Source: Thermoplasmata archaeon
GTDB lineage: Archaea; Thermoplasmatota; Thermoplasmata; Lutacidiplasmatales; UBA184
NCBI GenBank assembly: GCA_028864975.1
Contig: JAGWLG010000010.1
Location: 26,352 to 90,351 of the forward strand
Length of the DNA stretch: 64,000 nt
Reading direction: 5' to 3'
Below are positions 23,080-38,932 of this stretch, piece after piece (the stretch's first letter is position 1; every line of letters begins with the position of its first letter). Under the pieces are notes generated by a model. It was given only the letters and a program-made list of their open reading frames with translations, did not search any database and was not told the origin of the DNA. The translations under genes and the position numbers were made by a program.

Positions 23080-24204
23080 TCATTTCTCGGGAGGGACAGC
23101 AGGGGTCGCTTCGTGGGTCTGTGCCGGGGCGGCGGCGGGTGAAGTCGGCGCCGACGGGGCTGCAGGTGCCGCGGTGCTCATCTGGGCCTTGATGGCCTCG
23201 AGCTCCTGGCGCAGGCGCTGGACCTCTTCGGAGGGCGCGGTCGGGGTAGGGGATCGTGCGCCCGCTGTATCGGGGGCAGCCTCACGCTTCCAGTACGATC
23301 TCAGGCCTAGGCTTCCAACGAGGAGTAAGGCGAAACCTCCCAGGTCGAGGAAAAGCGCCGTGGAGGGTCCCCACGAGACCGTGCCAGTCGCGTTGGAACC
23401 GCTCGAGCCTCCTCCTCCACCCCCACTGTTGCCTCCGAAGTTCACGGCGCAGGACCCCATCGGTGAAAAGTTCGGCCCACCCCCGCCGTTCCCACCATTG
23501 CAGAGCGGGCCAACGAGGAATCCTGTGACGAGGGTCAGGATGACGAAGAGGATGAGGCCGCCGACGAGAGCGAGTACGGCCCCCGAGCGGGTGAGCGAGT
23601 ACGGTTTCTTGAGCCCCTTCCGAGTGGCGGGAGCGCTGCCCGTGCGTAGACCCAGGATCGCTCCCGCCGCCGCGAGCGCGACCCCGAGGAGTAAAAGGAC
23701 AGCCCCGGCAGCAAGGAGCAGGACCACGAACTCGAGACCCTGACTGCCACCACCGGATCCCGCGAGCCCGGCGTAGGCCAGACATTCTCCGGGAACTAGG
23801 GGGTTGTTGTTGCCCGAGTTGTTGTTGGAGCCGTTGTTCGAGGCGCCCTCGGGGCGTGCAGATTCTGGGGAGGAGCTCATCCTGCCTTGGGCGAGGGGGG
23901 ACGCGGCGTGGCCCTGGTGCAGAGGCGGAGAGGAAGGGGCGGCGAAGCCGTGGTTCCCAGCGTTGCTGGACTCGCTCAGGCAGACCGAGAACGAGTCAAA
24001 GTCGGCGGTCGCATGGAGGAACTCGGACCCTGAGGAAACGTTGACCGCGACCACGGTCCAGGGAAACAGGAGTGTGAGCAGGAGCAAGGCCGCCCCTCCA
24101 AGGACAAGGAAGGAATAGATCGGCGACGCCGGGGGCGGCAGACGCACGTCAGGGTTCCCCGGCGGAACGCGGCGTGGTGCGGTGGCAGGTCCAGAGGCAC
24201 TCAT
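23080..24204 (-). CDS. Four-TM claudin/PMP22-like membrane protein with short C-terminal coiled coil
   Basis: TM1 ending LLFPW; Cys pair in loop 1 (SVCL...ECLA) and in loop 2; TM4 WGPSTALFLDLGGFALL; EEVQRLRQELEAIKAQM. ATG 24204 overlaps the upstream stop by 4 nt. Confidence 0.65.
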   Translation of the reverse strand: MSASGPATAPRRVPPGNPDVRLPPPASPIYSFLVLGGAALLLLTLLFPWTVVAVNVSSGSEFLHATADFDSFSVCLSESSNAGNHGFAAPSSPPLHQGHAASPLAQGRMSSSPESARPEGASNNGSNNNSGNNNPLVPGECLAYAGLAGSGGGSQGLEFVVLLLAAGAVLLLLGVALAAAGAILGLRTGSAPATRKGLKKPYSLTRSGAVLALVGGLILFVILTLVTGFLVGPLCNGGNGGGGPNFSPMGSCAVNFGGNSGGGGGGSSGSNATGTVSWGPSTALFLDLGGFALLLVGSLGLRSYWKREAAPDTAGARSPTPTAPSEEVQRLRQELEAIKAQMSTAAPAAPSAPTSPAAAPAQTHEATPAVPPEK

Positions 24205-27200
24205 GTTGAGGGCCCGACCTCCACCACGGGAGACCCACAACTGTCGCAGAAGCCGGCGCCGGCTTCGACTTCCGCCCCGCAGGACGTGCATTTCCTCACG
24301 CCGGCCGCGGGCGGTGGAGCCTGCGTCCCAGCGCCCGGTTCCGCCGGGGGCCCAGCGGGCGGAGCTGTATCCCCGACGATGGAGGGAGGCTCGACCGGGG
24401 TGGCCGCCGGTACCGTCACTGGCCAGGCCGTCGACATCGGTGTGGAACCCCCGCTAGCTCCTCCGAGGGTCGCTGCCGCACCTGCCTCGATCAACGCCTT
24501 ACGGCGTCGGCGAGCGAGCGCGAACTGTGCGATCCCGGCGGCGAAGAGGCCGACGACCGCGATCAGCACGACAAGCGTGGGGACCCCTCCTGGCGCCCCG
24601 AGGTTGAGCGGCCCTCCGGAGCCGATCCCACCGGTTCCCGGACCACTACCGGGGGTCACGTGCACGATGCCGCTGGTGTAGGCCTTGTTCCCAACGTGGT
24701 CCGTCGCCGTCAGGTTGACGTAGTAATCCCCCGGGTTCTGGAACGTGTAGTTGATGCCCGAGGTGGAGAAGTAGGTGGAATTCTCGATGTTCCAGCGGAA
24801 GGTGTAAGGTGGGACCCCTCCGGTCGCGCTCGCCTGACAGGAGATCGAGAGAGGTGCCGTGCCGCCAGGGGGGCCGTTCGAGGTCGAGGGTTGGCACTTG
24901 ACGTTCACACTGAGGGAGTTCCCCGGCCCTCCCGCTCCGACGGTGACGTTCGTGTAGTGTCTGTTGACCTGCGACGGGGGGCTCGAATCCGAGAGTTCGG
25001 CCTCGACCATGTAGGTCCCCCGGTTCGAATAGGTGTGCTGGAAGGTGGGACAATTGGGGGAGGAGCAGTTCTGCCAGAAGCTGGGTGTGCCGTCCGCGAG
25101 GAACCAGACCCACGTGTAGGGGCCCTTTCCTCCCTGGATCGACGAGGCGAGGCTCACGGAGAGCGGAGGCGTCCCCGAGAGCGGGCTCAAGGTGACGGTG
25201 GAAGAGAGCGGGGAGGTCGAGCCTGGGACGGTGACACTGACGAATAGGCTGTGCTCCGCACTCGCCCCGGACGCATCGGTCGCCCTCAACGAGACCTGGA
25301 AGTTCCCGCCGGCCGTGAACGTGTGCGCGACGCGGACGGTGGTGCTCGTGTTGGTCCAGTTGAGGGAGGTGCCATCGCCGAACGTCCAGAGGAACGCGTA
25401 GGGGGAGGAGCCTCCGGACGCACTGCCCTGGAAGTACACGGTGAGCGGATAGGGCCCTGTGGTCGGGTTGGCGCTCAGCGCGACCGAGGGGGGTGGGGAA
25501 GTTCCCACGGCGAGGGTCACCGTCTGCCAGGCCGTGCTCCCGACCTGATCGGTCGCTGTGAGATTCGCGACGAAGGTCCCGGTACTGGCGTAGGTGTATG
25601 CGATGCGTCCTCCCGTGCTGGCGTTGGACCAGGTGACGACCGAGCCATCGCCGAAGCTCCAGCGGAAGGTGTAGGGTCCCGTGCCGCCCGACGCACCGCC
25701 GTTGAAGTAGACCGTGAGCGGAGGCGACCCCCCGGAGGGATTCGCGGAGAGCGAGACCGCGACTGAGCTGGCCGGGGTGACGGTGATGGTCGCGGTCTTG
25801 TACCCGACGGCCCCGTTCGAGTCGCGAACGGTCAGGTTCGCGATGAAGGTGCCCGCCCTCGGGTAGGTGTGCGACAGGCTCGAGCAACAATTGTTGTACG
25901 AGCCATCCCCGAACGAGTAGTTCCACGAGTAGGGGGGGGTTCCTCCGGTGGCCGTGCCCGAGAAGAATACCGCGAGGGGAGCCGTGCCGCTCGTGCGATT
26001 CGCGCTGATCCCGACCGTGAGGGCGGGGAGCGAAACCGGGCCGGCGAAGGACCATGTGCTGGAGCCGGAGAACTGGGTCCCCCATCCCCCGAACCCCAGA
26101 ATGGCAGTGTAGGAGGGATCGTAGTCCATGTTCCAGGCGTCGGGTCCTGGGGAGCCGGAGGTCCCAGCGGTCACGTTCGACCATCTTCCCGCGGCGAACT
26201 GCCAGGTGTCCCCGTAGAACCCGGTGGGGGGAGCGGTCGTGGACCCGCCCTGGAAGTCCCCTTTCCATCCGCCGTAGAACATCAGGACGTTCGCCGCCGT
26301 GTCGGAGCTCCCTTCCATGAACCCGCGGGGTGAGGGCGAGTTGACCGGGGCGAGAGAGGTCCAGGTCACTCCCGAGAGCTCCCACGTGTCGCCCGTGGTG
26401 TAGCAGGGGTTGCCGCACCCGGTAATGCCCCCGAAGAGCACCGAATATCCGTCGGTCGCGTCGTACGCGAACCCCGCCCCCGCTCGGGGGCCGGGGCCGG
26501 GGTTCGTCGATAGGGGGCTCCAGGTCCCGGACCGGAAGGCCCAGGTGTCGTACGCTGACGACCCGCAGAGGTACCCCAGGAAGTACGTGCATCCCCCGAA
26601 GAGGACGACGCGGGTCGCAGCGGAATCGTACGTGATCGCCGCATCCGACCTCGGTGAAGGGGGGGTGCCCGCCGAGGCCGTGAGGTTCGTCCAGGTCCCT
26701 CCCGCGAACGCCCACGTGTCCGACTGGTCGTAGCAGCCGGTGTTGCCCACAAGATGGGCCCCGGAAGTGGAGACACACCCCCCGAAGAGCAGGACCTCAT
26801 GGTCGAGCCCATCGTACACCATGGCGCCCCCCGCCCGAGCGGGGGGCGTGCTCACCGTTGTCCCCGTGAGGTTCTTCCAGCTCCCTCCGTAGAGGGCCCA
26901 CGTGAAGGGCCAGACCGGGACCCCGCCACCCGCACAACTGGCCCCGGAGACGCCACAGCCGGCGCCGCCGAAGAGCAGAAGGTAGCCGTCCTGGGCGTCG
27001 TAGACGAGCCCGTTGTCCGCGAGCGGGGGTGGGGAGTTCGAGATCGAGCTCGTGAGGTTCGTCCAGCCCGTCGCGTCGGGCACGAGGTGGGAGGTGGGGG
27101 CCTTCGGCGAAGTTGCCGACGCAAGGCGAACAGGATCCCCATGCAAGGCCCACGGGGGCCCGAGCATGTGGAGCGGCGAGGCGCCCGCCGCGAGCGTCGT

Positions 27201-27353
27201 CGCGGGAAGCGCGAGGAGCAAGAACAGGAGGACCAACGAGAGGCGGCTCCACCCACGGGCCGCCGTGCCCTGCGCGGATCGACGCCAGAAGCGTCCCGCG
27301 GAGAGGGGCCCCCGTTCCCCGCAGGTCGACACGCCCAGCGATGGCATCCTCAT
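24201..27353 (-). CDS. Type-I surface protein: signal peptide, 6 Kelch-like blades, 5 PKD domains, TM helix, Pro-rich tail, C-terminal zinc ribbon
   Basis: Six P..R....(Y)D......(L)FGG repeats; five PL.V.F.G.A.GG..PY...W.FGDG-type repeats; TM VLIAVVGLFAAGIAQFALARRRRK; CTSC-x10-CDSC; many N-x-S/T sequons. The track ORF is over-extended to 28064. Confidence 0.85.
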   Translation of the reverse strand: MRMPSLGVSTCGERGPLSAGRFWRRSAQGTAARGWSRLSLVLLFLLLALPATTLAAGASPLHMLGPPWALHGDPVRLASATSPKAPTSHLVPDATGWTNLTSSISNSPPPLADNGLVYDAQDGYLLLFGGAGCGVSGASCAGGGVPVWPFTWALYGGSWKNLTGTTVSTPPARAGGAMVYDGLDHEVLLFGGCVSTSGAHLVGNTGCYDQSDTWAFAGGTWTNLTASAGTPPSPRSDAAITYDSAATRVVLFGGCTYFLGYLCGSSAYDTWAFRSGTWSPLSTNPGPGPRAGAGFAYDATDGYSVLFGGITGCGNPCYTTGDTWELSGVTWTSLAPVNSPSPRGFMEGSSDTAANVLMFYGGWKGDFQGGSTTAPPTGFYGDTWQFAAGRWSNVTAGTSGSPGPDAWNMDYDPSYTAILGFGGWGTQFSGSSTWSFAGPVSLPALTVGISANRTSGTAPLAVFFSGTATGGTPPYSWNYSFGDGSYNNCCSSLSHTYPRAGTFIANLTVRDSNGAVGYKTATITVTPASSVAVSLSANPSGGSPPLTVYFNGGASGGTGPYTFRWSFGDGSVVTWSNASTGGRIAYTYASTGTFVANLTATDQVGSTAWQTVTLAVGTSPPPSVALSANPTTGPYPLTVYFQGSASGGSSPYAFLWTFGDGTSLNWTNTSTTVRVAHTFTAGGNFQVSLRATDASGASAEHSLFVSVTVPGSTSPLSSTVTLSPLSGTPPLSVSLASSIQGGKGPYTWVWFLADGTPSFWQNCSSPNCPTFQHTYSNRGTYMVEAELSDSSPPSQVNRHYTNVTVGAGGPGNSLSVNVKCQPSTSNGPPGGTAPLSISCQASATGGVPPYTFRWNIENSTYFSTSGINYTFQNPGDYYVNLTATDHVGNKAYTSGIVHVTPGSGPGTGGIGSGGPLNLGAPGGVPTLVVLIAVVGLFAAGIAQFALARRRRKALIEAGAAATLGGASGGSTPMSTAWPVTVPAATPVEPPSIVGDTAPPAGPPAEPGAGTQAPPPAAGVRKCTSCGAEVEAGAGFCDSCGSPVVEVGPST

Positions 27354-27370
27354 GGTTCTCACACAAGAGG

Positions 27371-28652: not shown

Positions 28653-29189
28653 TCAGGCCGCCGAGGTGGCGCTGTAGCCTTCCTCCGCCGGGGCCGAGGG
28701 CGCGGCGAGCCAGAGTGCGAGCGCGCCAAGGAGCGCGAGCGTCCCTCCGACCATGGCCAGGTAGAAGCCCACGCCCGCGCTGTCGAGGAAGAGCGCCCCC
28801 CATAGCGACCGGGCCCCCGTGTTGAACCGGAACGCCGCGACGAGCGGCAGGGCGAAGACGCCCAGCGCGACCAAGGTGGCGGCGAGCTTCGGGAGGGTCT
28901 CGTGGGCGCGTCCCGTTCCCCAGACCCGAGGACGGACCAGGGCGGCGGCCAGGATGACGAGGCCAATGGCCCCTGCGGCGAGAACGGCGAGCTCGGGGAG
29001 GTGGCCCATGAGGTCGACCCCATTGAGCCCGCGGACCGGTCCCAGGGCGCTGAAGGTGTACCACGGCAGCACGAGGGCGAGGAGGACCAGCAGGCCACCC
29101 GCCGCGAGAAGGAAACAGGGGAACCGCGACGGCGAGGCCTCGCGGTGGAAGAGGACCTCCTCGTCCCACGGCGCCCGGCCCGCGCTCAT
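28653..29189 (-). CDS. Four-TM claudin/PMP22-like membrane protein
   Basis: TM1 ending LVLPWY; TM4 GVGFYLAMVGGTLALLG; ATG overlaps the upstream stop by 4 nt. Confidence 0.7.
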   Translation of the reverse strand: MSAGRAPWDEEVLFHREASPSRFPCFLLAAGGLLVLLALVLPWYTFSALGPVRGLNGVDLMGHLPELAVLAAGAIGLVILAAALVRPRVWGTGRAHETLPKLAATLVALGVFALPLVAAFRFNTGARSLWGALFLDSAGVGFYLAMVGGTLALLGALALWLAAPSAPAEEGYSATSAA

Positions 29190-32100
29190 GCGTCCTCCGC
29201 GGGGCTCGAGGCGTCCTCGCCCTTGATCTCAGGACCCGCAGCGGGACCCGAGCCCTCCGGCTCCACGGTCGAGGACGGGGAGGGTCGCGTGGGGGCGGAC
29301 GACGCGGCGGGGGCCGTGGACGGTCGGTCCGTGTCCGCCGCCCCATCCGCGTCGTCCCCTGCGGTGGGGAGAGACCCCCCGCGGGCGCCCTGCGTCCTAT
29401 CGGACCCCCTACCGCGCGGGGAGGGCTCCCTTCCCCTCCGGTGGAGCACCATCGCGAGCAGACCCATCGCCAGGATCGCCACGAGCCCGGCGAGGAGGGC
29501 GATCGGCGCCAGGCTCGCGTTGTCGATGCTCACCGTCTGCGAGAAGCTGCGGCTCTCTCCGAGCGAGTTCACTGCCGTGACGGTGACCAGGTGGTGCCCG
29601 TTGGGATACTGCGCGGTGTTGAGGCTCATCGACGCGGTGACCGGCGTGCCGCTCGCCGGGGCGAGCTCCATCGCGACCTGGGGGCCGCCATCGATCTGGA
29701 ACCAGGCCGCCTGGAGGCCAGCAGGGTCGCTCAAGGTGACCGTGTAGGTCACGGTGCCGCTGAGGACCGGCACGCCCGGCTCCGCGAAGGCGGCGACCGT
29801 GCCGCTAAGGTCGATCTCGAAGGTGACGCTCGCCACCGCTTCGCGGTTCCCGGCGAGGTCCGTCCCGTAGTAGTAGACCGTGGTCGCCCCGGTGGTGGTG
29901 TACGTCAAGGGCGTCAGGTAAACGTGCCACGGGCCGTTCGCAGAAGCATTGCTGTAGAGGATCGTGTCGACCCCGCTGCCACCGTTGTCCGTCGCCGAGA
30001 GCGAGAGCGCGACCGGCGTTGCGTACCATCCGGAGGCCGTGAGGTTCCCCGAGAGCGAGGCCGCGGTCACCGGCGGGGTCGAGTCGATGCGGACCGTCTG
30101 CGACTCGACGGGCTCGACAAGCCCCGAGCCGCTCACCGAGTAGAACCGCAGGGCGTGCACGCCGTCGCCCGCGACGAGGAGGGCACTCCCCCGCGTCCAG
30201 TTCGAACCGTCCAGGCTCCAGTAGGTGGAAGCGATGCCGCTTGGTCCCCCCTTGGCCGTCAGGGTGACCGGGACGCTGGAGGCCGTGTACCACCCTCCTT
30301 GCACGTTGGAGGTCGTCAACGGGACCACGGCATCGACCTCGATCGTAACCGTCGAGCTCGGTCCTTGGACCCCGGAGTTCGAGACGGCGTAGGCGCTCAA
30401 GAGCGTCGAACCCAGGGCGGAGATCGAGAACGGTCCCGTGTAGATGGTCGGAGCGCCCGAGCCGACCTGGTCGACGATCTCACGCACGCCGCTCGGACCG
30501 GGGCTCGCCGAGAGCGAGACCGTGACCGGCCCGGTATACCACCCAGAGGTCCCGAGGGGGCCGGTGAGGACGATGGCCACAGACGGGGCGACCGGGTCCA
30601 CGATCGTCGAGGCCTCTGACCCGGGGAACGTCCCGCGGTTGCCCGCGAGGTCCTGCCCCACGGCCGCGAACTCGTACGTACCGGCCCCGGGGGCGCTGAA
30701 CGTGAACGGGCTGGCCGTGATGAGGGTGGTCGACGCGAGCGACCAGGTGGTCCCCGAGCTGTTGGACCAGTAGATCCAGACCCCGGCGACGCCGCTCCCT
30801 CCAGGGTCGCTCGCGGACCACGGGACGGGGAAGGACATCGCGGTCTCGAACGCGGGCAATGGCAGGACCGTGGCGCGCGGCGGCTGGGTGTCGACCATGA
30901 AGCGCTCCGAGCTCGACCAGCCCGCCGTACCGCCGGAGGCCGAGACGGCCTCGACACGCCAGTACCAGTTCCCGTCCGTCAGGACCACGCCGAGCGAGGT
31001 GCCCGCGAGGCCGCCGTAGGTCTGGGTCCCGGGGCCGAAGGTCGCGCTGGAGGAGACCTGCGCCGTGTAGGACGCGTTCGCGTTCGCCACCGGAGACCAG
31101 ACGAGGGTCGCCCCGCTCGAGTTGACGAAGCTTCCCGTGAGCGGGGAAACCGGGGTCGGGACCGCGAGGGCCCAGACGTTGAAGGGGACGCTCGGGGCCA
31201 CGTTGGGAGGGATCGCCTGGTCATAGGCCCCGAGCTGCTGCACGCCGGGGGTCGAGGGCACGGTGAAGGCGACCGCTCCCCAGCCCTGCGCGTTCGTGCC
31301 GACGGTGGTCCCGAACAGCGGCAGGCCGTTCCACGAGAGGGTGACCGCGTTGGAGGCCGCGAAGCCCGCGAGCAGGACCGACACCGAGTTCCCCTCGTAG
31401 GTCGAGGTCGTCGTCGGGAAGATCTTCGGGGTCTCCGTGAACGCGACGGAGTTGGGGACGTTCCCGAGGCTGTCGTACCCGCTGATCGCGTGCGCTCCGG
31501 CGGGCGCCGCCGGGACCGTGAAGGCGATGACCACCGTGCCCAGCACGTTCGTCATCTGTTGGATGCCGGTGGGTCCACCGTCCCAGGTGACCTGGACGTA
31601 GGAGAGGGCGCCCATGCCCTGGTAGGTGAGCGTGTCCACCGACAGGAACGGACCGCTGGTGGCCGACTCGGAGAGCGAGGGCTCGACCGTGAAGTTCGCG
31701 AGCGCGCTGTGGGCGGCGCTGTCGTTCGCCCAGACCGGGTAGGGGCCGGCCGCGCGCGTGGGGACCGTGAACGTGGTGGCGAAGACCCCCGTCGCGTTGG
31801 CACTCGCCGTGGCGAGCGCGGTGGCGATCCCCTTCCAGAAGATCGAGACGGTGGCGCTAGGACCAAAGTTGAACCCCAGCGCGGTAACGGTCGAGTTGAC
31901 CACGCCGGCGTTGGGCACGAGGAGGAGCACCGGGCCCACGAGGAAGAAAGCCGGGGCCACCACCCCGTTGGCGTCGAGCGCGACCACGGGGTGGACACCG
32001 CGGTATGCCCCGACCGGGACCGTCCACGTGCCGAAGGCGGCCGGGAGGACCGCGCCCGTCGCGTTCGAAGTGATCCCGGCCCCGAACCCGAAGATGGTCC

Positions 32101-33733
32101 GCTGCGTCGCGAGACCGTAGTCCCAGAGGAGGGCGACCCCGGCGTTCGCGCTCAGCCCTTCCGCGTAGGTGATCAGGACCGTGCTCCCCGCGGCTCCGGC
32201 GAAGGGGCGCAGGGTGAGCGAGGCCTCGATGGTGAAGGTGGCTCCGGCGGAGGGACCCGTCGCCGGGGTGAAGGTCACGGTGTGGCCCCCGTTCCACGCC
32301 GGGGGGGCGCCGTTGGAGAAGGAGAACCCGCCCCGGGTGTTGGTGGCCCCGGTGGCGAGGGTGTGCTGGTCCCCGAGCCCGAAATCCCAGTAGACCGTGA
32401 TCGCCGAGGAGCCCGCGAAGCCGGTCCCCACCCCCGAGAAGGCCGTTCCCACCGGGCCGCTCGCCGGGGCGAGGAGGACCTGGGGGACGATCTGGAAGTT
32501 GTCGGTGGCACCGTGGCCGGCGACGTCGAGGCCCTCGACGGTGTGCGAGCCCGCCGTGTCCGCGGGGATCGTGACCCCGACCACGAAGCTCCCGGCGGGG
32601 TCCGTGGTCCCGCTCGCCAGGAGCGCCCGGTTCGGTCCCGTGGGGGACCAGATCACCTGGTAGGAGGTCAAGGGCGAGAACCCGTCGCCCGCTACGGTCG
32701 CGGTGCTGCCCACGAACCCCGAGCCCGGCGAGATCGACACCGACGCGGCGAGCGCGAAGGGGGCGGAGGCGGTGTCACCGGCATCGTCCGTCATCTGGAC
32801 GATGTAGATGCCGGCCGGGTCCGCGGGGACGTTGAACCCGCAGTTGATCCCGCCGTTGCCGCTCAGGCCCGAGCCCGTGCAGCTGTCGCCGGGTAGACCT
32901 CCGGCCCCGTTCCACGTGAGCGAGACGATGTTCCCGCCGTTGTCATAGCCCGTTCCGACGACGGTGATCCCCTGGCCGACGTTCCCGGTCGCAGGGAACA
33001 GCTGGAGGTCGGTCACGGTGATGAAGGTCGCGGTCGCGGTGTAGCCGTTGTTGTCGCGCAGGGTGACGAAGTGGTTCCCCGCCACGCTCGAGGGGACCGT
33101 GAACGAGCAGGTGACGTTCCCCTGGGCGTCGATCCCGGCACCGTTGCAGCTGCTGCCCCCAAGGGGGCCGCCCGACCCGTCCCAGGAGATCCGGTTGATG
33201 GTCCCGCCGGTGCTCCAGCCGGTCCCCGTGACGCTGACCACGGTGTTCACCGGGCCCGAGGAGGGGCTCATTGCGAACGTGGGGCTGACCGTGAAGGACG
33301 CGGTCGCGGTGTTTACCCCCTGGACCACGGCGACGTTGGCCGTTCCCGCGTTGCCCCACCACAGGTCGATCGTGACGTCGAGGTTGCCCCCGGCGGAGGT
33401 CGTGCAGCTCCCTGCGAGCGCTCCGGGGCCTCCCGCCTGGCAGAAGAGGAGGATCTGGCCCCCGGCGAACGTGATGGTGCCAGTGACGGCGGCGGTCGCG
33501 CCCCATCCCCCGCCGGTGATGCGCAGCGGGGTCCCCACGGTGGCCGTGGTCGGGTTCACGGAGATAGAGGCCGCCGGTAGCGCGTGTGCGCCGGGAACCA
33601 ACATCATGAGCATCAGCCCCACGACCAGGAAGGCGACGCGAACGGTCGGGCGACGGAGCCGCGGGGCGAGGGCCCCCACAGGCGAGTTCGGCGCAACCCC
33701 GGCGGCCCTGCACTCAGCTACCTCTGCTTGCAT
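29186..33733 (-). CDS. Giant type-I surface glycoprotein (about 9 IPT/TIG-like repeats, FN3/Ig and OmpL47-like domains, C-terminal TM)
   Basis: Nine ~95-aa units beginning x-P-x-x-G-x-x-G...G-x-G-(F/W/Y); GNWYWRVEAV; three GWYT/GWYA..V.LSA repeats; TM LAPIALLAGLVAILAMGLLAMVLHRR. Confidence 0.85.
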   Translation of the reverse strand: MQAEVAECRAAGVAPNSPVGALAPRLRRPTVRVAFLVVGLMLMMLVPGAHALPAASISVNPTTATVGTPLRITGGGWGATAAVTGTITFAGGQILLFCQAGGPGALAGSCTTSAGGNLDVTIDLWWGNAGTANVAVVQGVNTATASFTVSPTFAMSPSSGPVNTVVSVTGTGWSTGGTINRISWDGSGGPLGGSSCNGAGIDAQGNVTCSFTVPSSVAGNHFVTLRDNNGYTATATFITVTDLQLFPATGNVGQGITVVGTGYDNGGNIVSLTWNGAGGLPGDSCTGSGLSGNGGINCGFNVPADPAGIYIVQMTDDAGDTASAPFALAASVSISPGSGFVGSTATVAGDGFSPLTSYQVIWSPTGPNRALLASGTTDPAGSFVVGVTIPADTAGSHTVEGLDVAGHGATDNFQIVPQVLLAPASGPVGTAFSGVGTGFAGSSAITVYWDFGLGDQHTLATGATNTRGGFSFSNGAPPAWNGGHTVTFTPATGPSAGATFTIEASLTLRPFAGAAGSTVLITYAEGLSANAGVALLWDYGLATQRTIFGFGAGITSNATGAVLPAAFGTWTVPVGAYRGVHPVVALDANGVVAPAFFLVGPVLLLVPNAGVVNSTVTALGFNFGPSATVSIFWKGIATALATASANATGVFATTFTVPTRAAGPYPVWANDSAAHSALANFTVEPSLSESATSGPFLSVDTLTYQGMGALSYVQVTWDGGPTGIQQMTNVLGTVVIAFTVPAAPAGAHAISGYDSLGNVPNSVAFTETPKIFPTTTSTYEGNSVSVLLAGFAASNAVTLSWNGLPLFGTTVGTNAQGWGAVAFTVPSTPGVQQLGAYDQAIPPNVAPSVPFNVWALAVPTPVSPLTGSFVNSSGATLVWSPVANANASYTAQVSSSATFGPGTQTYGGLAGTSLGVVLTDGNWYWRVEAVSASGGTAGWSSSERFMVDTQPPRATVLPLPAFETAMSFPVPWSASDPGGSGVAGVWIYWSNSSGTTWSLASTTLITASPFTFSAPGAGTYEFAAVGQDLAGNRGTFPGSEASTIVDPVAPSVAIVLTGPLGTSGWYTGPVTVSLSASPGPSGVREIVDQVGSGAPTIYTGPFSISALGSTLLSAYAVSNSGVQGPSSTVTIEVDAVVPLTTSNVQGGWYTASSVPVTLTAKGGPSGIASTYWSLDGSNWTRGSALLVAGDGVHALRFYSVSGSGLVEPVESQTVRIDSTPPVTAASLSGNLTASGWYATPVALSLSATDNGGSGVDTILYSNASANGPWHVYLTPLTYTTTGATTVYYYGTDLAGNREAVASVTFEIDLSGTVAAFAEPGVPVLSGTVTYTVTLSDPAGLQAAWFQIDGGPQVAMELAPASGTPVTASMSLNTAQYPNGHHLVTVTAVNSLGESRSFSQTVSIDNASLAPIALLAGLVAILAMGLLAMVLHRRGREPSPRGRGSDRTQGARGGSLPTAGDDADGAADTDRPSTAPAASSAPTRPSPSSTVEPEGSGPAAGPEIKGEDASSPAEDA

Positions 33734-34078: not shown

Positions 34079-35233
34079 TCAGGTCGAGCATCGCGGGCAG
34101 GAGAGCACCCTCACTCCGGTGAGCGCCGAGGGGATCAGGGAGCTTCCACATCGTCGGCAAGCGGGAAAGGCGGGTCGAGCGCCGCCCCTTCCCATCTTCA
34201 CCGAGGAGGACGCGAGCGCGTCCTTCGACGGCGTGGCCCGCGCTCGGACCGCGACCGTACCCAGGACGACCGCGAGCAGCGCGGCGGCCGCGATCGTCCC
34301 CAGGACCGGGGGCGAGAGGACCCAAGCCGGCACCAGCGCCCTCGGGAAGTGTAGGGTGCTAAGGGCCACCGTGGGATCGTAGGAGAGCGAAGCATAACCG
34401 CCAGGGGCTCCGACGAAGAGCAGGTCGACGGACGAACTCTGGTCGTCGCTCGAGCCCTGGACGGAGCTCACGACGGAGACGGAAGCGCCAGCGCCGCCAG
34501 GGTAGCTGACCGAGGCCGTCGGTCCCCAGGTCAGACTAGCGATCGGCGAGCCCGAGCCGCCCCCCGACTCCTCGACGTCCTCCCCCGAGCTTCCGGAGGT
34601 GAGGTTCGTCGCTTGGGCCGCGCGGGCACCGAGCACCAATCCCAGGCTGTCCGAGGGATCCTGCCACGGCCAGCCCGAGGCCTGGACGTCGAACTTCACC
34701 CTCCAGTCGGAGCTGCCGCCGCTGTTCGAGAGATGGAAGGTCAAGGCGACGTCGATCGGGGTGGAGTTCCCGTAGACGTAGTCGAGAGGCTCCGAGGTGT
34801 TCCAGGTCCCCGTCGCGGGAGAGGCGCTCGGCGTGCCCGTGAGCTGCACAAGGACTCCTGAGGAGGTGGTCGACCAGGAGAGGTTCCAGCCGGGATCACC
34901 GTCTCCCAAGGGGGCGTACGCCACAACCTCCCCTGACGGCGCGACCTCGGCGAGACCCACAGCAGAGGCGCTGAAGTTCACCCGGCCATCCTGCACAGAA
35001 GAGACCCAGAACGTGGGGGTCTCTCCGGCGAACTGGAGCCGGACCTCTCCGTTCGTCCAGGTGAAAGGTGCAGGGTGCGGGTCCTCCGACGGCGCGCCCG
35101 GCGTGTCGGCACGGGCGGAGGAGGCCCCCAGGGTGAGGAGCAGGAGGGCGGCTACGAAGGTCGCGAGGAGGGTGGGGAGAGCTCGGCCCCGGAAGGCGGC
35201 GGTCCGGCGAGAGAGGAAGGTCGAGTCGTTCAC
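34079..35233 (-). CDS. Secreted beta-rich protein with C-terminal TM and zinc-ribbon tail
   Basis: Signal peptide ending SARA-DT, beta-rich ectodomain, TM LGTIAAAALLAVVLGTVAV, CRRC-x16-CPRC. Start placed at GTG 35233. Confidence 0.7.
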   Translation of the reverse strand: MNDSTFLSRRTAAFRGRALPTLLATFVAALLLLTLGASSARADTPGAPSEDPHPAPFTWTNGEVRLQFAGETPTFWVSSVQDGRVNFSASAVGLAEVAPSGEVVAYAPLGDGDPGWNLSWSTTSSGVLVQLTGTPSASPATGTWNTSEPLDYVYGNSTPIDVALTFHLSNSGGSSDWRVKFDVQASGWPWQDPSDSLGLVLGARAAQATNLTSGSSGEDVEESGGGSGSPIASLTWGPTASVSYPGGAGASVSVVSSVQGSSDDQSSSVDLLFVGAPGGYASLSYDPTVALSTLHFPRALVPAWVLSPPVLGTIAAAALLAVVLGTVAVRARATPSKDALASSSVKMGRGGARPAFPACRRCGSSLIPSALTGVRVLSCPRCST

Positions 35234-35348
35234 GGTCGTTCCTGACCGGTCTAGTTCGGCCAGATGGTCAAGCGTTTTGGCGCAGGGTCCGAACTGGCTG
35301 GTGCAAGCTCTGGAGGGGGACGGCTCCCGGACACCGACCGCCATGGGT

Positions 35349-35873
35349 TCATTCCCTCAGGAGGCCGACGAAGGCCTCCAGGAACCGGTCCACGAGGCGA
35401 TCATCGAAGCTCTCGCGGTAGGACCGGAGGAGCCCCTGCACACGGGCGGGGGAGGTCGGGCGGTAGCGGCGCGACTCGCCCTCCAGGTAGCTCTCGACGA
35501 CCCCTCGCTCGATCATGTGGCGGAGATGGAAGGAGACCGTGGACCGGCTGAGCCCCACCCGGGAGGGGAGCTCCGCGAACGTGAGCCCCGGGGATGCGAG
35601 CATCTCGACGAGCAGCACGCGTTCGGCTGGGCTGCGGAGGAAGAGGAGGATCTTTCGGTCCTCCCACGTCATCTCCTGGGGGAAGTAGCGGTCGCGTCCG
35701 CCCGCCCGCTCGCGGCGTAGCGCGCCGCCGCGCGTGAGCTGGTCCAAGTGGTACGCGGTCTGCCCCCAGCCCAGATGGAGCGCTCGTTGCAGCTCTCGCG
35801 CGCTGATCCCGGGGTTCGCGCGCACCGCTTCGAAGATGCGGCGACGGGTGCCTTGCTGGAGGAGCTCATCCAT
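35349..35873 (-). CDS. Tandem winged-helix transcriptional regulator (ArsR/MarR-like, archaeal type)
   Basis: RRRIFEAVRANPGISARELQRAL..GQTAYHLDQL, and a second HTH PGLTFAEL..VGLSRSTVSFHLRHM. Confidence 0.88.
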   Translation of the reverse strand: MDELLQQGTRRRIFEAVRANPGISARELQRALHLGWGQTAYHLDQLTRGGALRRERAGGRDRYFPQEMTWEDRKILLFLRSPAERVLLVEMLASPGLTFAELPSRVGLSRSTVSFHLRHMIERGVVESYLEGESRRYRPTSPARVQGLLRSYRESFDDRLVDRFLEAFVGLLRE

Positions 35874-36165
35874 GCCCGGGGACCGTGGCGGTGGGCCTCC
35901 GTCGGACCACGGAGAGGTAAAGCAGGCCCGCGGCCGCCACGAGGATCATGAGCGGGAGCGAGGCGACCTGAAGACGCGCGCCGTAGAGGGGCGAGACCTC
36001 ACCCACCAACGCGGCCACCCCGACCGCAGCGAGGAGGGTGAACGAGCCGGCAATGAAGTAGAGCCGCCGCTCCTCGTACCGTTTCGCCGCGAGGACGGCG
36101 ATGAGGGCGAGAGTTCCCGCGAGACCCGCCAGAAGGACCGCCAAGAAGACCGAGATGAGGTCCAC
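35866..36165 (-). CDS. Small 3-TM membrane protein coupled to the wHTH regulator
   Basis: Three hydrophobic helices; overlaps the wHTH start. GTG 36165 chosen; ATG 36228 is also possible. Confidence 0.65.
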   Translation of the reverse strand: MDLISVFLAVLLAGLAGTLALIAVLAAKRYEERRLYFIAGSFTLLAAVGVAALVGEVSPLYGARLQVASLPLMILVAAAGLLYLSVVRRRPTATVPGHG

Positions 36166-36294
36166 GGCGTCTGCACGGACCTGTTGGCTATGAGGGCTCG
36201 GTGTGGGCGGCTGGGGGTTGCACCACACCGTTCGGAGCCTGCACCAAAAGCCTAGTCCCCTTCGTGGCGCCTCGAGGGTCCAGAGGTCGACAAC

Positions 36295-36543
36295 ATGGGC
36301 GCACTACCCTTGGTGCTGCTGGCCGTGATCGGGGCGACCGCCCTGGTCGCGCCGGCCGTCGTGCACCTCCCGGCGTTTTCCCATCCGGCCTCCGGTAGCG
36401 GAGCTTCCGGGTGTCCATCGGACACCCAGCCGAGCCCGGGGGACGGATCGGACGGACCCGGAGAGAACGAGAGCGAGATGGAGTACGAGAACGAGTCGAG
36501 CGACGATGGCTCCGATGGCGGCTCGGGCTCCTGCGGCTCGTGA
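36295..36543 (+). CDS. Small exported protein with acidic Ser/Gly tail
   Basis: Signal-like N-terminus, then GC...ENESEMEYENESSDD...SCGS. Confidence 0.5.
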   Translation: MGALPLVLLAVIGATALVAPAVVHLPAFSHPASGSGASGCPSDTQPSPGDGSDGPGENESEMEYENESSDDGSDGGSGSCGS

Positions 36544-36548
36544 GCACG

Positions 36549-38405
36549 ATGAGCGGACCTAGCGGTCAACGGCACCGTCCGCCGACCGGAAGCAGGGACC
36601 CCCGCGCCTCGAGGGCGGGCGGGGTCCCTGAACCCTTTCCCACCCCCGCGCGAGGACTCGCGAAGGCGAAGGAGGCGGGTCGCGGGAACTTCGCTTCGTC
36701 CCTGCCGCACCCACCGATCGCGCTCCTCCCCGGCTCCTTGCCGCGGCCCACATCGCCCGTTCCCTCGCCCATCCGAGGGCCGCGCCCTCGCCATCACACT
36801 GCGTCTGGCCTTCGTGTTCCCATCCTGTTCCTTTCCGCGTGCCTGGTCTCGATGGTCCCGGGGTCGGTCGCCCATCCGACGATCGCCGGTGCCGCGAGCT
36901 GGACCCAGTTCCATGGCGACGCCGCGCTCACCGGCACGACGACGACCGGCGCCCCCGGTGGGACGACGCTCTACAGTGTCGACCTGACGCGCGACCTCGG
37001 GGCCGGCGTCGCGGACCCGCTCGGGAACGACTTCCCCTACCAAGCCTCCCCCGTCACGGACGGCACCAGCGTGTACGTCGCGCTCAACAACGCCGTGGTG
37101 TCCGTTTCCGCTGCCAGCGGGAGCTTCGAGTGGCTGCGCGGGATGCCGGGCGGCAGCGGCAATGGTCCGGTCGTCGGGACCCCGCTGCTCGACAACGGGA
37201 TGCTCTATCTCGACCAGGATGGCGGCCCAAACGAGCTCGCCGCCCTCTACCCGGGGAACGGCACGATCGCCTGGACCCTCACGTCGCCGAGCGGAGGCAA
37301 CCCCTCCGCTTCCTCCGTCGTCGAGGAAGGGGGTATGCTCGTCCTGGCGGACACCTCGGGTGGGTTCTTCTGGCACCCTCCCTCTTCCACCGGCCTCTGG
37401 GGGGCTCCGGCGGTCCCCGGAGTGGCCGAGTATTTCGCGACGCCGAGCTTCACGGTCGTGAACGGGCAGGGTGCGGCGTGGGTACTGCCGGACCGTGGGA
37501 ACCGTTCCCTCGACGCCTGGAGCCTGAGCGGGGTGCCCCTTCCAGGGTTCCCGGTCGCGACGGGACAGTCCCTGGACCGGCTCTTCTCGTCAGCGGCCCT
37601 CGTGAACCTGACCGCGCCGAGCGGTGCGGTCTCCACATGGGCCATCTTCGGAGGGGAGGGTGGGACAGGCGCCGCGAGCCACCTCTACGCGGTCGACGTT
37701 TCGTCGCCCCAGGGCGTGCTGGCGCTCACGGTTCCCGCCCTCGGGAGCGGCGACGCGGGGGTCCGTTCGACCCCGGCGGTCGTCGCTTCCGGCGCCACTG
37801 CTTCGATCTACTTCGGGAGCCGTGCGGGGACCGTCTCCTCGGTCGAGCTCGATCCTTTCGCCGCCACGCCGCGGGCCCAATGGACCTGGGTCTGGAACGC
37901 GTCGACCGGCGGGCCCGTCGAGGCCTCTCCCGTCGTCGTTGGAGGCGAGGTGATCGCCCCGTCCGAGGACGGCAACGTCTACGGGCTCGCGCTCGGAACG
38001 GGCGTCCAGCTCTGGAGGGTGGGGACCGGCGCGCCGATCTACGCGAGCCCGGCCCTCGCCGGCGGGGTCGCCTGGGTCGTGAACGCCAACGGCCTGCTCA
38101 CCGCGATCGGCGGTGTGGGCCCCTCGTCTCCCCCCGGTGGCTCCCCGGGGCCTTCCCCGACCTCGGACAACTCGCTTGCCTCGATGGCCCCCTGGCTGAT
38201 CGCGGCGGTCGCGGTGGCCGCTCTCGCGCTGTTCCTGATCGTGGGCTACGTACGGCGTCGCCGCCGGCCGCACGTCGGCGCTTCCGCCTCCTCAGGGAGC
38301 CCTTCCCCCGCGATGCCCCCCGCTCCCCCGCCTCCTCCACCTCCACCCCCTCCGGCTCAGAGAGCAACCACTAAGGTCGCGGCCGCCTGGACGGGAGGAC
38401 GTTGA
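36549..38405 (+). CDS. PQQ/BamB-like beta-propeller surface protein with C-terminal TM and Pro-rich tail
   Basis: WTQFHGDAALTG, ASPV, GTPLL, SASSVV, STPAV, EASPVV...SEDGNVYGLALGTGVQLW, ASPAL blades; TM WLIAAVAVAALALFLIVGYVRRRRR. Start uncertain. Confidence 0.82.
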   Translation: MSGPSGQRHRPPTGSRDPRASRAGGVPEPFPTPARGLAKAKEAGRGNFASSLPHPPIALLPGSLPRPTSPVPSPIRGPRPRHHTASGLRVPILFLSACLVSMVPGSVAHPTIAGAASWTQFHGDAALTGTTTTGAPGGTTLYSVDLTRDLGAGVADPLGNDFPYQASPVTDGTSVYVALNNAVVSVSAASGSFEWLRGMPGGSGNGPVVGTPLLDNGMLYLDQDGGPNELAALYPGNGTIAWTLTSPSGGNPSASSVVEEGGMLVLADTSGGFFWHPPSSTGLWGAPAVPGVAEYFATPSFTVVNGQGAAWVLPDRGNRSLDAWSLSGVPLPGFPVATGQSLDRLFSSAALVNLTAPSGAVSTWAIFGGEGGTGAASHLYAVDVSSPQGVLALTVPALGSGDAGVRSTPAVVASGATASIYFGSRAGTVSSVELDPFAATPRAQWTWVWNASTGGPVEASPVVVGGEVIAPSEDGNVYGLALGTGVQLWRVGTGAPIYASPALAGGVAWVVNANGLLTAIGGVGPSSPPGGSPGPSPTSDNSLASMAPWLIAAVAVAALALFLIVGYVRRRRRPHVGASASSGSPSPAMPPAPPPPPPPPPPAQRATTKVAAAWTGGR

Positions 38406-38932
38406 CCGTTCCGAGTTCCTCCACCCCCGCGCCTTCCGGTCCCGCTCCAGCGCTGCCACGTGCGGCGAGCCTGACCTCGTTTCTGGGCACGACACGGACC
38501 CTGACGTGGGTGTGGGTCCTCCTCGCGGGGCTGGTGGCCTTGATCGATCTCTTGGAGATCCTCCTGACCATCTTCGCCCTTCGGTTCCCCCTGGGGGGAT
38601 TGGAAGGGCTCGCCTATGCTGTGATCTGGGGCGTCGTCGACCTGTTCATCCTGGCGAGGATCGGCGGCTGGAGGAGCGAACTGGAGCGCGGCAGGTACGC
38701 GGCCCTCCAGGAGCCCTTCCTGCTGTGGGGGATCCTCGGGACGATCTTCGGGATCCTTCCGGGGCTGCTCCTTCTGGTCGCCTACGTCCGCGTGCTTCCG
38801 TGGTCCGATGAACCCGCGGGCTCGGCGGGGGCGTCCTCCGCGTCGCCGTCGGCGACGAACCCCCCTCCTCCACCCTACGGGGTCTCTCCTTCCGCCCCCG
38901 GCGGTGCTGCCACGAAAGCCGGGGAGAACTGA
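38402..38932 (+). CDS. 3-TM membrane protein with Pro-rich tail
   Basis: Three hydrophobic segments; 4-nt overlap with the propeller gene stop; PPPPPY tail. Confidence 0.7.
   Translation: MTVPSSSTPAPSGPAPALPRAASLTSFLGTTRTLTWVWVLLAGLVALIDLLEILLTIFALRFPLGGLEGLAYAVIWGVVDLFILARIGGWRSELERGRYAALQEPFLLWGILGTIFGILPGLLLLVAYVRVLPWSDEPAGSAGASSASPSATNPPPPPYGVSPSAPGGAATKAGEN

What the first reader, a model, noticed from the sequence alone, without database searches (positions are those of the whole stretch)
23080..38932. Repeated cassette: giant surface protein coupled to a claudin-like tetraspan (candidate adhesion/junction system)
Three times, a large type-I surface gene is followed with a 4-nt stop/start overlap by a small polytopic membrane gene: Kelch-PKD to 23080-24204, IPT/Ig to 28653-29189, and PQQ propeller to 38402-38932. 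The first two partners have four TMs, share L(L/V)(F/L)PW at the end of TM1 and a G..(F)(Y/L).. TM4 (GVGFYLA), and one has a Cys pair in loop 1. These are hallmarks of the claudin/PMP22 superfamily. Repeated coupling implies stoichiometric complexes of ectodomain receptor plus tetraspan (inference), possibly an undescribed archaeal cell-contact or surface-organising system.
Basis: partly seen in the sequence, partly recalled or inferred. Interest (0 to 1): 0.78.

Follow-up and report, generated by a model that had tools for sequence, protein, structure and literature searches.

The report
Archaeal surface giant with claudin-like partner
In an uncultured Thermoplasmata archaeon, a 1,515-residue surface protein gene overlaps by four bases the gene of a small four-helix membrane protein; this pairing recurs in at least six archaeal families, and the small protein is predicted to fold like animal claudins and to clamp the giant's membrane anchor.

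Summary
In detail: three large single-pass surface genes are each followed, with a 4-nt stop/start overlap (ATGA, ATGA, TTGA), by a small polytopic membrane gene.

The three pairs are not one repeated cassette.
- **Pair 2** (28653-33733, minus strand) is a conserved module. Homologues of its 178-aa tetraspan directly follow a roughly 800-1,770-aa TM-anchored surface gene at 13 loci in 12 Thermoplasmata genomes (GC 33-70%) and in 5 metagenomic clusters.
- **Pair 1's** tetraspan belongs to a multi-copy, usually stand-alone family. No coupling to a Kelch-PKD gene was found elsewhere.
- **Pair 3's** partner is an unrelated three-helix family. It lies next to the propeller gene only in close relatives, after a spacer.

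Both tetraspans model as four-helix bundles with extracellular hairpins. Their best structural matches are MP20, claudins and TARPs (Z about 12, Foldseek E at best 0.003). Their only or best PDB sequence matches are claudins (E 0.04-0.09). That suggests a claudin-like fold; homology is unproven.

A complex prediction for pair 2 scored 0.79 against 0.00 for controls. It places the giant's TM helix on tetraspan TM3/TM4 and the membrane-proximal Ig domain on the tetraspan loops.

Nothing supports a cell-junction role. The closest analogue is LHFPL5 with protocadherin-15.

The parts
29186..33733 (-). Pair 2 giant: 1,515-aa type-I surface protein with a signal-peptide-like N-terminus, tandem Ig-like repeats, an FN3-like region, three OmpL47-type beta-barrel domains, a membrane-proximal Big_7 Ig domain, one TM helix and an 86-aa tail starting HRRGRE
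   Evidence: Translation. NCBIfam barrel_OmpL47 3.4e-33. GC3 0.92. TM at residues 1411-1429. Homologous giants in relatives.
29381..29848 (-). The part of the pair 2 giant predicted to contact the tetraspan: membrane-proximal Big_7 domain (conserved DNGxH loop and V(D/N)N juxtamembrane motif) plus the TM helix
   Evidence: Alignment A4 with invariant D41, D53, T78, G84, H86, G97. Big_7 matched in 7 of 9 members. Interface residues listed. Interface columns are more conserved than the rest, p=0.02.
28653..29189 (-). Pair 2 tetraspan: 178 aa, four TM helices, N and C termini inside, short beta-hairpin in loop 1, conserved W43, G50, G57 and G141 (the G-x-G-W/F-Y motif at the start of TM4)
   Evidence: Translation. 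Alignments A2 and A5. AF2 model, pLDDT 67.7 and pTM 0.64. Fold searches. GC3 0.90.
29186..29189 (-). ATGA stop/start overlap of pair 2, preceded by GGAGGACGC (Shine-Dalgarno-like)
   Evidence: Overlaps of 4 or 8 nt in 12 relatives; overlaps or 1-2-nt gaps on metagenomic contigs.
24201..27353 (-). Pair 1 giant: Kelch propeller, five PKD domains, TM helix, Pro-rich linker and cytoplasmic zinc ribbon. The ATG at 27353 is taken as the start; the open frame runs up to 28064.
   Evidence: Translation. Pfam PKD_4 1.3e-44, Kelch 2.9e-15, Zn_Ribbon_1 3.3e-6.
23080..24204 (-). Pair 1 tetraspan: 374 aa, four TM helices, long low-complexity loop 1 with a Cys pair, a second Cys pair in loop 2, WGP motif before TM4, cytoplasmic coiled-coil/Pro-rich tail. 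It belongs to a multi-copy Thermoplasmata family (A3).
   Evidence: Translation. Alignment A3. AF2 model, pLDDT 66.5. Fold search. Three to four paralogues per genome in the genus, none coupled to a giant gene.
36411..38405 (+). Pair 3 giant: PQQ/BamB-like beta-propeller with a C-terminal TM helix and a poly-Pro tail. The start is uncertain (GTG 36411 or ATG 36549), and a hydrophobic segment lies near residue 140.
   Evidence: Translation. Pfam PQQ_2 3.5e-15. Orthologues at 57-58% identity in G001, G002, G003 and G005.
38402..38932 (+). Pair 3 partner: 176 aa, about three TM helices, motif EPxLLWGILGxIFGxxPGxLLL. It is unrelated to the two tetraspans and belongs to a multi-copy family whose other members often end in a CPxCG...YxRWYCY zinc ribbon. 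TTGA overlap preceded by GGGAGGACG.

Best explanation
The core of the finding is pair 2. A giant Ig-domain type-I surface protein and a small claudin-fold tetraspan are made from translationally coupled genes and assemble into a fixed membrane-anchor complex.

**Predicted arrangement.** The giant's single TM helix packs against TM4 and TM3 of the tetraspan. The two short extracellular loops of the tetraspan (the hairpin after the TM1 'LPW' and the 'SFLNN-GxGWY' loop) cradle the giant's membrane-proximal Big_7 domain at its conserved DNGxH and V(D/N)N motifs. The likely effect is to turn a one-helix anchor into a five-helix one and to fix the base of a very long ectodomain on the cell membrane. 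Such an anchor would matter most in lineages that lack a rigid wall, which is background knowledge about some Thermoplasmata and was not shown for this one.

**How the other two pairs fit.** This tetraspan clade is a specialised branch of a wider Thermoplasmata tetraspan superfamily. Other branches stand alone or are fused to cytoplasmic zinc fingers. Pair 1's tetraspan may be a distant branch that happens to sit behind a Kelch-PKD receptor gene in this genome only. Pair 3's small protein is a different family with lineage-restricted synteny.

**Shown:** gene overlap, its conservation, family membership and predicted topology.
**Predicted by models:** the fold and the interface.
**Inferred:** the anchoring function.
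For: **Conserved coupling**
- Every close homologue of the 178-aa protein follows a 1,311-1,769-aa ORF with a 4-nt overlap. These are G001 and G002 (same genus), G025, G027, G029 and G030 (a second family), and G028 twice (a third family), with GC from 33% to 70% (in G030 the giant is cut by the contig end).
- Four more families' worth of genomes (G031, G214, G373, G486) have 4- or 8-nt overlaps with TM-anchored ORFs of at least about 500 aa.
- Five metagenomic clusters are coupled too: P0014, P0020 and P0022 by overlap, P0032 by a 2-nt gap and P0036 by a 1-nt gap. Their upstream proteins end in an Ig domain, a VDN-type motif, a TM helix and a basic tail.

**What is conserved in the giants**
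- The ectodomains vary (828-1,769 aa where the gene is complete, different domain sets), but the last Big_7 domain plus TM helix is conserved.

**Complex prediction**
- ipSAE 0.79 (runs 0.78-0.80) against a best control of 0.00. By the tool's calibration, 58 of 80 solved complexes and 2 of 110 mismatched pairs reach the mark. Runs agree in at least 97% of contacts and partner pLDDT is at least 86.
- The helices are parallel, consistent with type-I topology and a tetraspan with both termini inside.
- Invariant D53, N83, G84, H86 and N110 of the giant, and G50 of the tetraspan, lie in the interface. Interface columns of the giant are more conserved than the rest, p=0.02.

**Fold**
- Foldseek's listed hits for the pair 2 model are almost all claudin-superfamily chains: claudin-15, -19, -3, -4 and -9, MP20, GSG1L, TARPs, GARLH4 and Cav gamma.
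- VIA-align gives MP20 Z 12.6 (144 residues, 2.8 A), claudin-19 Z 12.3 and claudin-15 Z 12.1.

**Precedent**
- A claudin-family tetraspan bound to the TM helix of a giant repeat-ectodomain type-I protein is known: LHFPL5 with PCDH15 (PMC6092121).
Against: - No experiment exists, and the complex score is a model's own confidence obtained with small (9-row) self-made alignments.
- Fold-match Z values of about 12 lie in the range the tool warns is reachable by generic helical bundles. A redesigned ROP four-helix bundle scores Z 11.3, though over only 118 residues.
- Foldseek E-values are all above 1e-3.
- Interface conservation in the tetraspan is not significant, p=0.09.
- Most class-level homologues (20 of 24 newly sampled loci) are not coupled to a giant gene. 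The fold therefore has other roles, and the anchoring role is specific to one clade.
- The module was not found in most genomes of the same family (0 of 117 in genus g4), so it is dispensable.
Confidence: 0.6

Rival explanations
1. The tetraspan is a dedicated biogenesis factor. It binds the giant's TM helix and last domain only transiently, during membrane insertion, folding or glycosylation, and is not part of the mature structure.
For: Translational coupling and a predicted TM-to-TM interface fit a chaperone as well as a permanent subunit. Giant repeat proteins often need help to fold (general knowledge).
Against: A 1:1 coupled gene with conserved extracellular loops that contact a folded domain looks more like a stable subunit. 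No catalytic or insertase-like motif is present, and Pfam and NCBIfam find nothing.
Confidence: 0.13
2. The tetraspan is a signal transducer. It relays ligand binding or mechanical load on the giant ectodomain to the cytoplasm, as TARP- or LHFPL-type auxiliary subunits modulate their partners.
For: Other branches of the superfamily are fused to cytoplasmic zinc ribbons or B-box-like fingers. The closest structural relatives include auxiliary subunits.
Against: The coupled clade has almost no cytoplasmic mass: short termini and a loop of about 15 aa. No conserved third gene accompanies the pair.
Confidence: 0.08
3. One reading: one repeated cassette of receptor plus claudin-like tetraspan that forms a cell-contact or junction-like system.
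For: Three pairs lie within 16 kb. The fold is claudin-like. The ectodomains look adhesin-like.
Against: The three partners belong to two or three different families. No other instance of pair 1's coupling was found, and pair 3's is lineage-restricted. The pair 2 tetraspan's loops are about 20 aa, too short for claudin-type trans contacts, and are predicted to be engaged in cis. Nothing tested bears on cell-cell contact.
Confidence: 0.05
4. The adjacency is an operon convenience with no physical interaction, and the tetraspan has an independent membrane function.
For: Most superfamily members stand alone. Four-nucleotide overlaps are common in compact genomes.
Against: An overlap maintained across at least six families and GC 33-70%, always behind a Big_7-TM protein whose ectodomain otherwise varies, is hard to explain without functional linkage. 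The complex prediction passed its controls.
Confidence: 0.07

Closest known systems
LHFPL5 (TMHS) with protocadherin-15, the vertebrate tip-link anchor
   Same: A four-TM protein with sequence homology to claudins flanks the single TM helix of a giant repeat-ectodomain type-I protein (PMC6092121). The architecture predicted here is the same.
   Different: The eukaryotic complex is a 2:2 assembly that is part of a mechanotransduction channel. Here there is no channel partner, the ectodomain is made of Ig/OmpL47 domains rather than cadherin repeats, and no sequence-level homology is established.
Claudin / PMP22 / EMP / MP20 superfamily (Pfam PF00822 and clan)
   Same: - Four TM helices with both termini inside.
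- A Trp directly after TM1 (claudin LPxW, recalled from memory, against LPW here), followed by a beta-strand.
- A long TM3.
- A G-x-G-(L/W)-Y motif opening TM4, which aligns to claudin-3 GAGLYVGW.
- These chains are the top structural matches for both models.
   Different: - No Pfam hit reaches threshold.
- Pair 2's family has no GLW motif and no Cys pair.
- The models show two or 2+2 extracellular strands instead of the 4+1 sheet.
- PDB sequence E-values are only 0.04-0.09.
- No evidence of strand-forming cis or trans oligomers.
TARP, GSG1L, Cav-gamma and GARLH4 auxiliary subunits
   Same: They are claudin-fold tetraspans that work by docking onto TM helices of a larger partner. The GARLH4 entry includes the TMD of single-pass neuroligin-2. 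They appear among the fold matches.
   Different: Their partners are ion channels, and the genes are not linked.
Tetraspanin-partner pairs (CD81-CD19, CD9-EWI-2, uroplakins; from general knowledge)
   Same: A four-TM protein paired with a single-pass Ig-domain protein. A uroplakin chain is a lower structural match, Z 8.3-9.2.
   Different: Tetraspanins have a large EC2 domain with a CCG motif, and none is present in these sequences. The structural matches are weaker than those to claudins.
Prokaryotic four-TM families of unknown function: Trp_oprn_chp (PF09534/TIGR02234), DUF5336 (PF17270), DUF4064 (PF13273)
   Same: They are the nearest clusters by language-model features and by predicted shape (TM 0.61-0.68). 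Single members give weak Pfam hits.
   Different: All scores are below thresholds. These families are mostly actinobacterial. No coupling to giant surface genes is known to me.
SlaA/SlaB of Sulfolobales (general knowledge)
   Same: A two-gene archaeal envelope module: a large outer protein plus a membrane-anchoring partner.
   Different: SlaB is a single-pass stalk protein that carries SlaA. Here the giant has its own TM helix and the partner is a tetraspan.

Membership tests
Claudin/PMP22/EMP/MP20 superfamily | Four TM helices with N and C termini cytoplasmic | tested here: met
   AF2 models of both tetraspans show four long helices. The basic residues sit in the TM2-TM3 loop and in the termini.
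Claudin/PMP22/EMP/MP20 superfamily | Sequence match to the family models (PF00822 and related) above the curated threshold | tested here: not met
   There is no hit for the window's own proteins. The best hits among relatives are Clc-like 0.0016, Claudin_3 0.017 and PMP22_Claudin 0.089, each in one member. Profile searches against PDB sequences give claudin-3 E 0.09 and claudin-4 E 0.04.
Claudin/PMP22/EMP/MP20 superfamily | W-GLW-C-C signature with a disulfide in extracellular loop 1 | tested here: not met
   Pair 2's family has the Trp after TM1 but no GLW and no Cys in loop 1. Pair 1's family has the Trp and a Cys pair in loop 1, invariant at one position and present in most members at the other, but no GLW.
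Claudin/PMP22/EMP/MP20 superfamily | Extracellular five-stranded sheet (four strands from loop 1, one from loop 2) on a left-handed four-helix bundle | tested here: inconclusive
   The models show two strands (pair 2) or 2+2 strands (pair 1) at pLDDT about 65. Sequential alignments to MP20 and claudins cover 139-158 residues at 2.8-4.0 A with Z 11-12.6. Generic bundles reach Z about 11 over fewer residues.
Tetraspanin (PF00335) | Large EC2 domain with a CCG motif and conserved cysteines | tested here: not met
   Direct reading finds no CCG. Loop 2 of the 178-aa protein is about 20 aa.
Un-named 'giant-coupled tetraspan' clade defined here (alignment A2) | About 150-180 aa, W at the end of TM1, G-x6-G hairpin, (S/T)F(L/M)N-x-G-x-G-W-Y before TM4, and a gene overlapping the stop of a Big_7-TM type-I protein gene | tested here: met
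Trp_oprn_chp / DUF5336 / DUF4064 | Pfam model match above threshold | tested here: not met
   Trp_oprn_chp scores 0.003 in a single member of each alignment. DUF4064 scores 1.7e-5 in 3 of 9 members of the pair 1 family, and the window protein is not among them. Atlas similarity is below 0.9.

The most novel reading that the evidence does not exclude
The Thermoplasmata tetraspans are true, very distant homologues of the eukaryotic claudin/PMP22/LHFPL superfamily. On that reading, both the fold and its use as a clamp on the TM helix of a giant type-I adhesion or receptor protein predate eukaryotes, or were exchanged with them, and the archaeal pair is a minimal prokaryotic model of LHFPL5-PCDH15-type complexes.
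Probability: 0.25. Interest if true: 0.85.

Novelty: new variant of a known kind. Interest (0 to 1): 0.62.

Why it matters
Claudin-fold tetraspans that dock onto single TM helices are, as far as I know, described only in eukaryotes. Two literature searches found no report of them in archaea. Neither partner family is in Pfam or NCBIfam.

A compact two-gene archaeal version would give:
- a simple system for studying how such tetraspans recognise a TM helix plus a membrane-proximal domain;
- an explanation of how some Thermoplasmata hold very large glycoprotein ectodomains on the membrane;
- a test case for whether the claudin fold is older than eukaryotes.

It also supplies an annotation rule: a small 'LPW...GxGWY' gene overlapping a Big_7-TM giant gene.

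Tried and rejected
- **BLASTP among the three small proteins** found nothing.
- **Profile comparison of the two tetraspan families** matches only TM1 and the first strand (34-42 columns, probability 95%). This could be TM composition. The C-terminal half does not match despite the shared ALFLD string.
- **Word-indexed protein searches** with the 178-aa and 374-aa proteins returned only the queries themselves.
- **A first context script** missed upstream genes whose stop lay past its search range. It was corrected after the ORFs were read directly. The same kind of error hid the PQQ neighbour in G002 until the search was run from the propeller side.
- **Pair 1 from the giant's side:** the Kelch-PKD protein has 15-53 PKD-rich matches per genome and no clear orthologue, so synteny could not be tested that way.
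- **A conserved third gene** was looked for around the pair 2 module and none was seen.
- **Archaeosortase/PGF-CTERM-type anchoring** was considered and dropped. The giants end in a TM helix plus basic tail, and the partner has four helices and no catalytic motif.
- **Complex predictions for pairs 1 and 3** could not be run because only one job was available.

Full report
**Setting**

The window is contig C28 (26352-90351) of a 3.6-Mb, 124-contig genome that is 89.6% complete. GC is about 69%. Because GC is so high, spurious ORFs abound. I therefore used third-position GC to confirm the real frames. All six genes of the finding score 0.74-0.92.

**Observation**

- Pair 1: a Kelch + 5xPKD + TM + zinc-ribbon protein (24201-27353, minus strand) is followed by a 374-aa protein (23080-24204), junction AACATGAGT.
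- Pair 2: a 1,515-aa protein (29186-33733, minus strand) is followed by a 178-aa protein (28653-29189), junction GCATGAGC.
- Pair 3: a PQQ/BamB-like propeller with a C-terminal TM helix (up to 38405, plus strand) is followed by a 176-aa protein (38402-38932), junction CGTTGACC.

TTG at 38402 is the only start-type codon ahead of the first helix of the 176-aa protein. Pairs 2 and 3 have GGAGGACG just before the overlapped start. A scan of the whole genome found 189 long ORFs with a TM near the C-terminus, eleven of them closely followed by a gene with at least three predicted TM helices. Only the three pairs here and one on contig C59 have a small partner (155-374 aa, three or four helices). 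The other seven partners are larger proteins of 3-8 predicted helices, two of which look like ABC permeases.

**Are the three partners related?**

BLASTP finds nothing between them. The 176-aa protein has about three helices and a different motif set. It belongs to a family present in 38 of 61 genomes sampled from the order, with four copies in this genome (the count includes G065, an unpublished genome on which no specific claim rests). Other members of that family often end in a CPxCG...YxRWYCY zinc ribbon.

The 374-aa protein belongs to another multi-copy family, aligned as A3. That family has three to four copies per genome in this genus. Its members have four TM helices, PW(Y/F) at the end of TM1, a Cys pair in loop 1, and WGP...GWY before TM4. 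They usually carry a Pro/Gln-rich N-terminus, and some carry the same kind of C-terminal zinc ribbon.

Profile-profile comparison of this family with the 178-aa protein's family gives 95% probability, but only over 34-42 columns covering TM1 and the first strand. The C-terminal halves do not match, even though the window's two proteins share the string ALFLD. A distant relationship is possible but not shown.

**Is the coupling conserved?**

*Pair 2: yes, strikingly.* Homologues of the 178-aa protein were found in these genomes:
- the same genus (G001 and G002, 49% identity);
- a second family (G025, G027, G029, G030);
- a third family (G028, two copies).

In each case the small gene overlaps by 4 nt the stop of a 1,311-1,769-aa ORF, at GC from 33% to 70%; in G030 the giant gene is cut by the contig end.

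A profile search of 1.84 billion representative proteins found only 53 relatives, so the family is rare. I looked up the contexts of seven of them. P0014, P0020 and P0022 overlap an upstream gene by 4 nt. P0032 and P0036 follow one after 2 and 1 nt. All five upstream proteins end in an Ig domain, a V(D/N)N-type motif, a TM helix and a basic tail. P0021 (short contig) and the bacterial P0039 show no overlapping upstream gene.

A class-wide search with the 34-sequence alignment A5 found the superfamily in 44 of 401 genomes and 26 of 104 genera. Four further genomes from three more families (G031, G214, G373, G486) show 4- or 8-nt overlaps with TM-anchored ORFs of at least about 500 aa. The other 20 newly sampled loci are stand-alone, tandem paralogues, or fused to an N-terminal B-box-like zinc finger.

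Coupling is therefore the hallmark of one clade within a wider tetraspan superfamily. The module was not found in genus g4 (0 of 117 genomes) or in G003.

*Pair 1: no.* The nearest relative of the 374-aa protein (G003) is preceded by a gene on the opposite strand. None of 11 paralogues in the genus, and none of 8 family members in other genera, follows a giant gene.

*Pair 3: partly.* Orthologues of the propeller (57-58% identity) in G001, G002, G003 and G005 are each followed by the orthologous small gene. The spacer is 10 to about 130 nt rather than an overlap. The closest homologues in genus g4, and all paralogues, lack the propeller neighbour.

**What the pair 2 giants share**

Their ectodomains differ in length and domain content:
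- P0005 has tandem Ig-like repeats and three OmpL47-type barrels.
- P0008 has seven OmpL47 barrels plus Big_13, Big_6 and fn3 domains.
- P0062 has only 828 aa of Big domains.

Their last roughly 115 residues before the TM helix nevertheless align (A4), with invariant D41, D53, T78, G84, H86 and G97. This region has a DNGxH loop and a V(D/N)N motif just before the helix. It is a Big_7 Ig domain in 7 of 9 members.

**Fold of the tetraspans**

*The 178-aa protein.* The AF2 model (9-sequence alignment, pLDDT 67.7, pTM 0.64) has four long helices, a hairpin at residues 42-56 and a long TM3. In Foldseek against the PDB, the listed hits are almost all claudin-superfamily chains. The best is claudin-15 (4p79) at E 2.7e-3, TM 0.44 and tool probability 1.00. 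None passes E 1e-3. The exhaustive aligner gives:

| Chain | Z | Aligned residues | rmsd |
|---|---|---|---|
| MP20 | 12.6 | 144 | 2.8 A |
| Designed claudin fold | 12.6 | 146 | 3.0 A |
| Claudin-19 | 12.3 | 139 | 3.1 A |
| Claudin-15 | 12.1 | 145 | 3.1 A |
| TARP gamma-7 | 11.9 | 141 | 2.5 A |
| Redesigned ROP bundle | 11.3 | 118 | 2.8 A |

The tool warns that Z below about 13 can be generic for helical bundles.

*The 374-aa protein.* The model (pLDDT 66.5) has four helices and two hairpins. Its best matches are again MP20 (Z 12.4, 156 of 166 residues), Cav gamma and a TARP (Z 12.2 each), and claudin-15 (Z 11.1). Foldseek E-values are 0.19 or worse.

*Sequence level.* The A5 profile finds only five PDB sequences at E up to 10, and all are claudin-3 or TARP gamma-5 (best E 0.09). 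It aligns the family's GvGWYlAl to claudin's GAGLYVGW. The A3 profile's best hit is claudin-4 at E 0.04. Pfam gives only stray sub-threshold hits: Clc-like, Claudin_3, PMP22_Claudin, MARVEL, Trp_oprn_chp and DUF4064.

*Nearest predicted-structure clusters.* These are actinobacterial hypotheticals, DUF5336, Trp_oprn_chp, and four-TM proteins fused to zinc ribbons or RING fingers.

*My reading.* A claudin/MP20-like fold is likely. Common ancestry is possible (about one in four) but unproven. The defining claudin sequence features are not met.

**Do the pair 2 proteins bind?**

I ran one complex prediction with alignment A4 (giant C-terminus) and A2 (tetraspan). It scored ipSAE 0.79 (runs 0.78, 0.79, 0.80) against a best control of 0.00. 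By the tool's calibration, 58 of 80 solved complexes and 2 of 110 mismatched pairs reach the mark, and the tool notes these counts hold only roughly with my own alignments. The runs agree in at least 97% of contacts, and partner pLDDT is at least 86.

The interface on the giant comprises:
- the loop at residues 81-87 (YPNGHHL);
- the juxtamembrane residues 105-112 (SIDNAS);
- one face of the TM helix.

On the tetraspan it comprises:
- the loop-1 hairpin (residues 45-52);
- the loop-2 stretch at residues 130-138 (WGALFLDSA);
- TM4, plus two residues of TM3.

The helices run parallel, as the two topologies require. Interface columns are more conserved than the rest in the giant (p=0.02) but not significantly so in the tetraspan (p=0.09). 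The model supports binding; it does not show it. A pass might partly reflect the model's memory of solved claudin-family complexes.

**Mechanism proposed**

The pair is made in fixed proportion through translational coupling. The tetraspan clamps the TM helix and seats the membrane-proximal Ig domain, giving a five-helix anchor for a very long ectodomain. The closest working analogue is LHFPL5 with protocadherin-15. In that structure, claudin-homologous tetraspans flank the central TM helices of a giant type-I protein (PMC6092121). Nothing examined bears on cell-cell contact.

**Novelty**

Searches of the paper library for claudin-like proteins in archaea or prokaryotes found nothing relevant. 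Neither partner is in Pfam or NCBIfam. I rate this as a new variant of a known kind: a tetraspan auxiliary subunit of a single-pass Ig-repeat protein, so far described in eukaryotes.

Earlier notes of this scan on the same stretch concern the zinc ribbons and the Kelch-PKD receptor architecture. They agree with what I saw but do not address the coupling. The scan had not noted this module on other DNA.

Noticed in passing
window 22227-23033 (-), 27456-28469 (+), 24201-24500 (-); loci L069-L072, L034-L046: A cytoplasmic zinc ribbon of the form CxxCG(x)P(A/T)xxVxQYxRWYCY ends many paralogues of both the pair 1 tetraspan family and the unrelated pair 3 family. Plain zinc ribbons also end the Kelch-PKD receptor and flank a coiled-coil protein in this island. 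It looks like a shared cytoplasmic docking module on otherwise unrelated membrane proteins.
   Followed up: partly
L115 (G188), L119 (G032), L124 (G197): One branch of the tetraspan superfamily carries an N-terminal B-box-like double zinc finger (C-x2-H...CAKCSKPLCMSC...CPQCY) fused to the four-TM domain.
   Followed up: no
L116 (G439), L117 (G458:C10 1433-2474): In the small, often complete genomes of family f8, the stand-alone tetraspans occur as tandem paralogues.
   Followed up: no
genome contig C59, about 172486-177945 (+) and the next 155 codons: This is a fourth pair in the genome: an 1,819-aa TM-anchored ORF overlapped by 4 nt by a 155-aa protein. The small protein has a signal-like N-terminus and two further hydrophobic helices, a layout that recalls VirB2/TrbC-type pilins. 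It is not related to the tetraspans.
   Followed up: no
window 34079-35344 (-) and 35349-35873 (-): Upstream of the pair 2 giant lie a 421-aa protein with no Pfam match and an HVO_0163-type double winged-helix regulator. Whether they belong to the same transcription unit was not tested.
   Followed up: no
window 36411-36860 (+): The propeller protein's hydrophobic signal-like segment lies about 140 codons into the open frame, and no start-type codon lies close upstream of it. Either a Pro/Arg-rich cytoplasmic N-terminus precedes an uncleaved signal anchor, or the start is unusual.
   Followed up: partly
window 29190-29200 and 38393-38401: Both overlapped starts of pairs 2 and 3 are preceded by the same GGAGGACG string inside the upstream gene's last codons. 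This is a Shine-Dalgarno-like element, consistent with re-initiation.
   Followed up: partly
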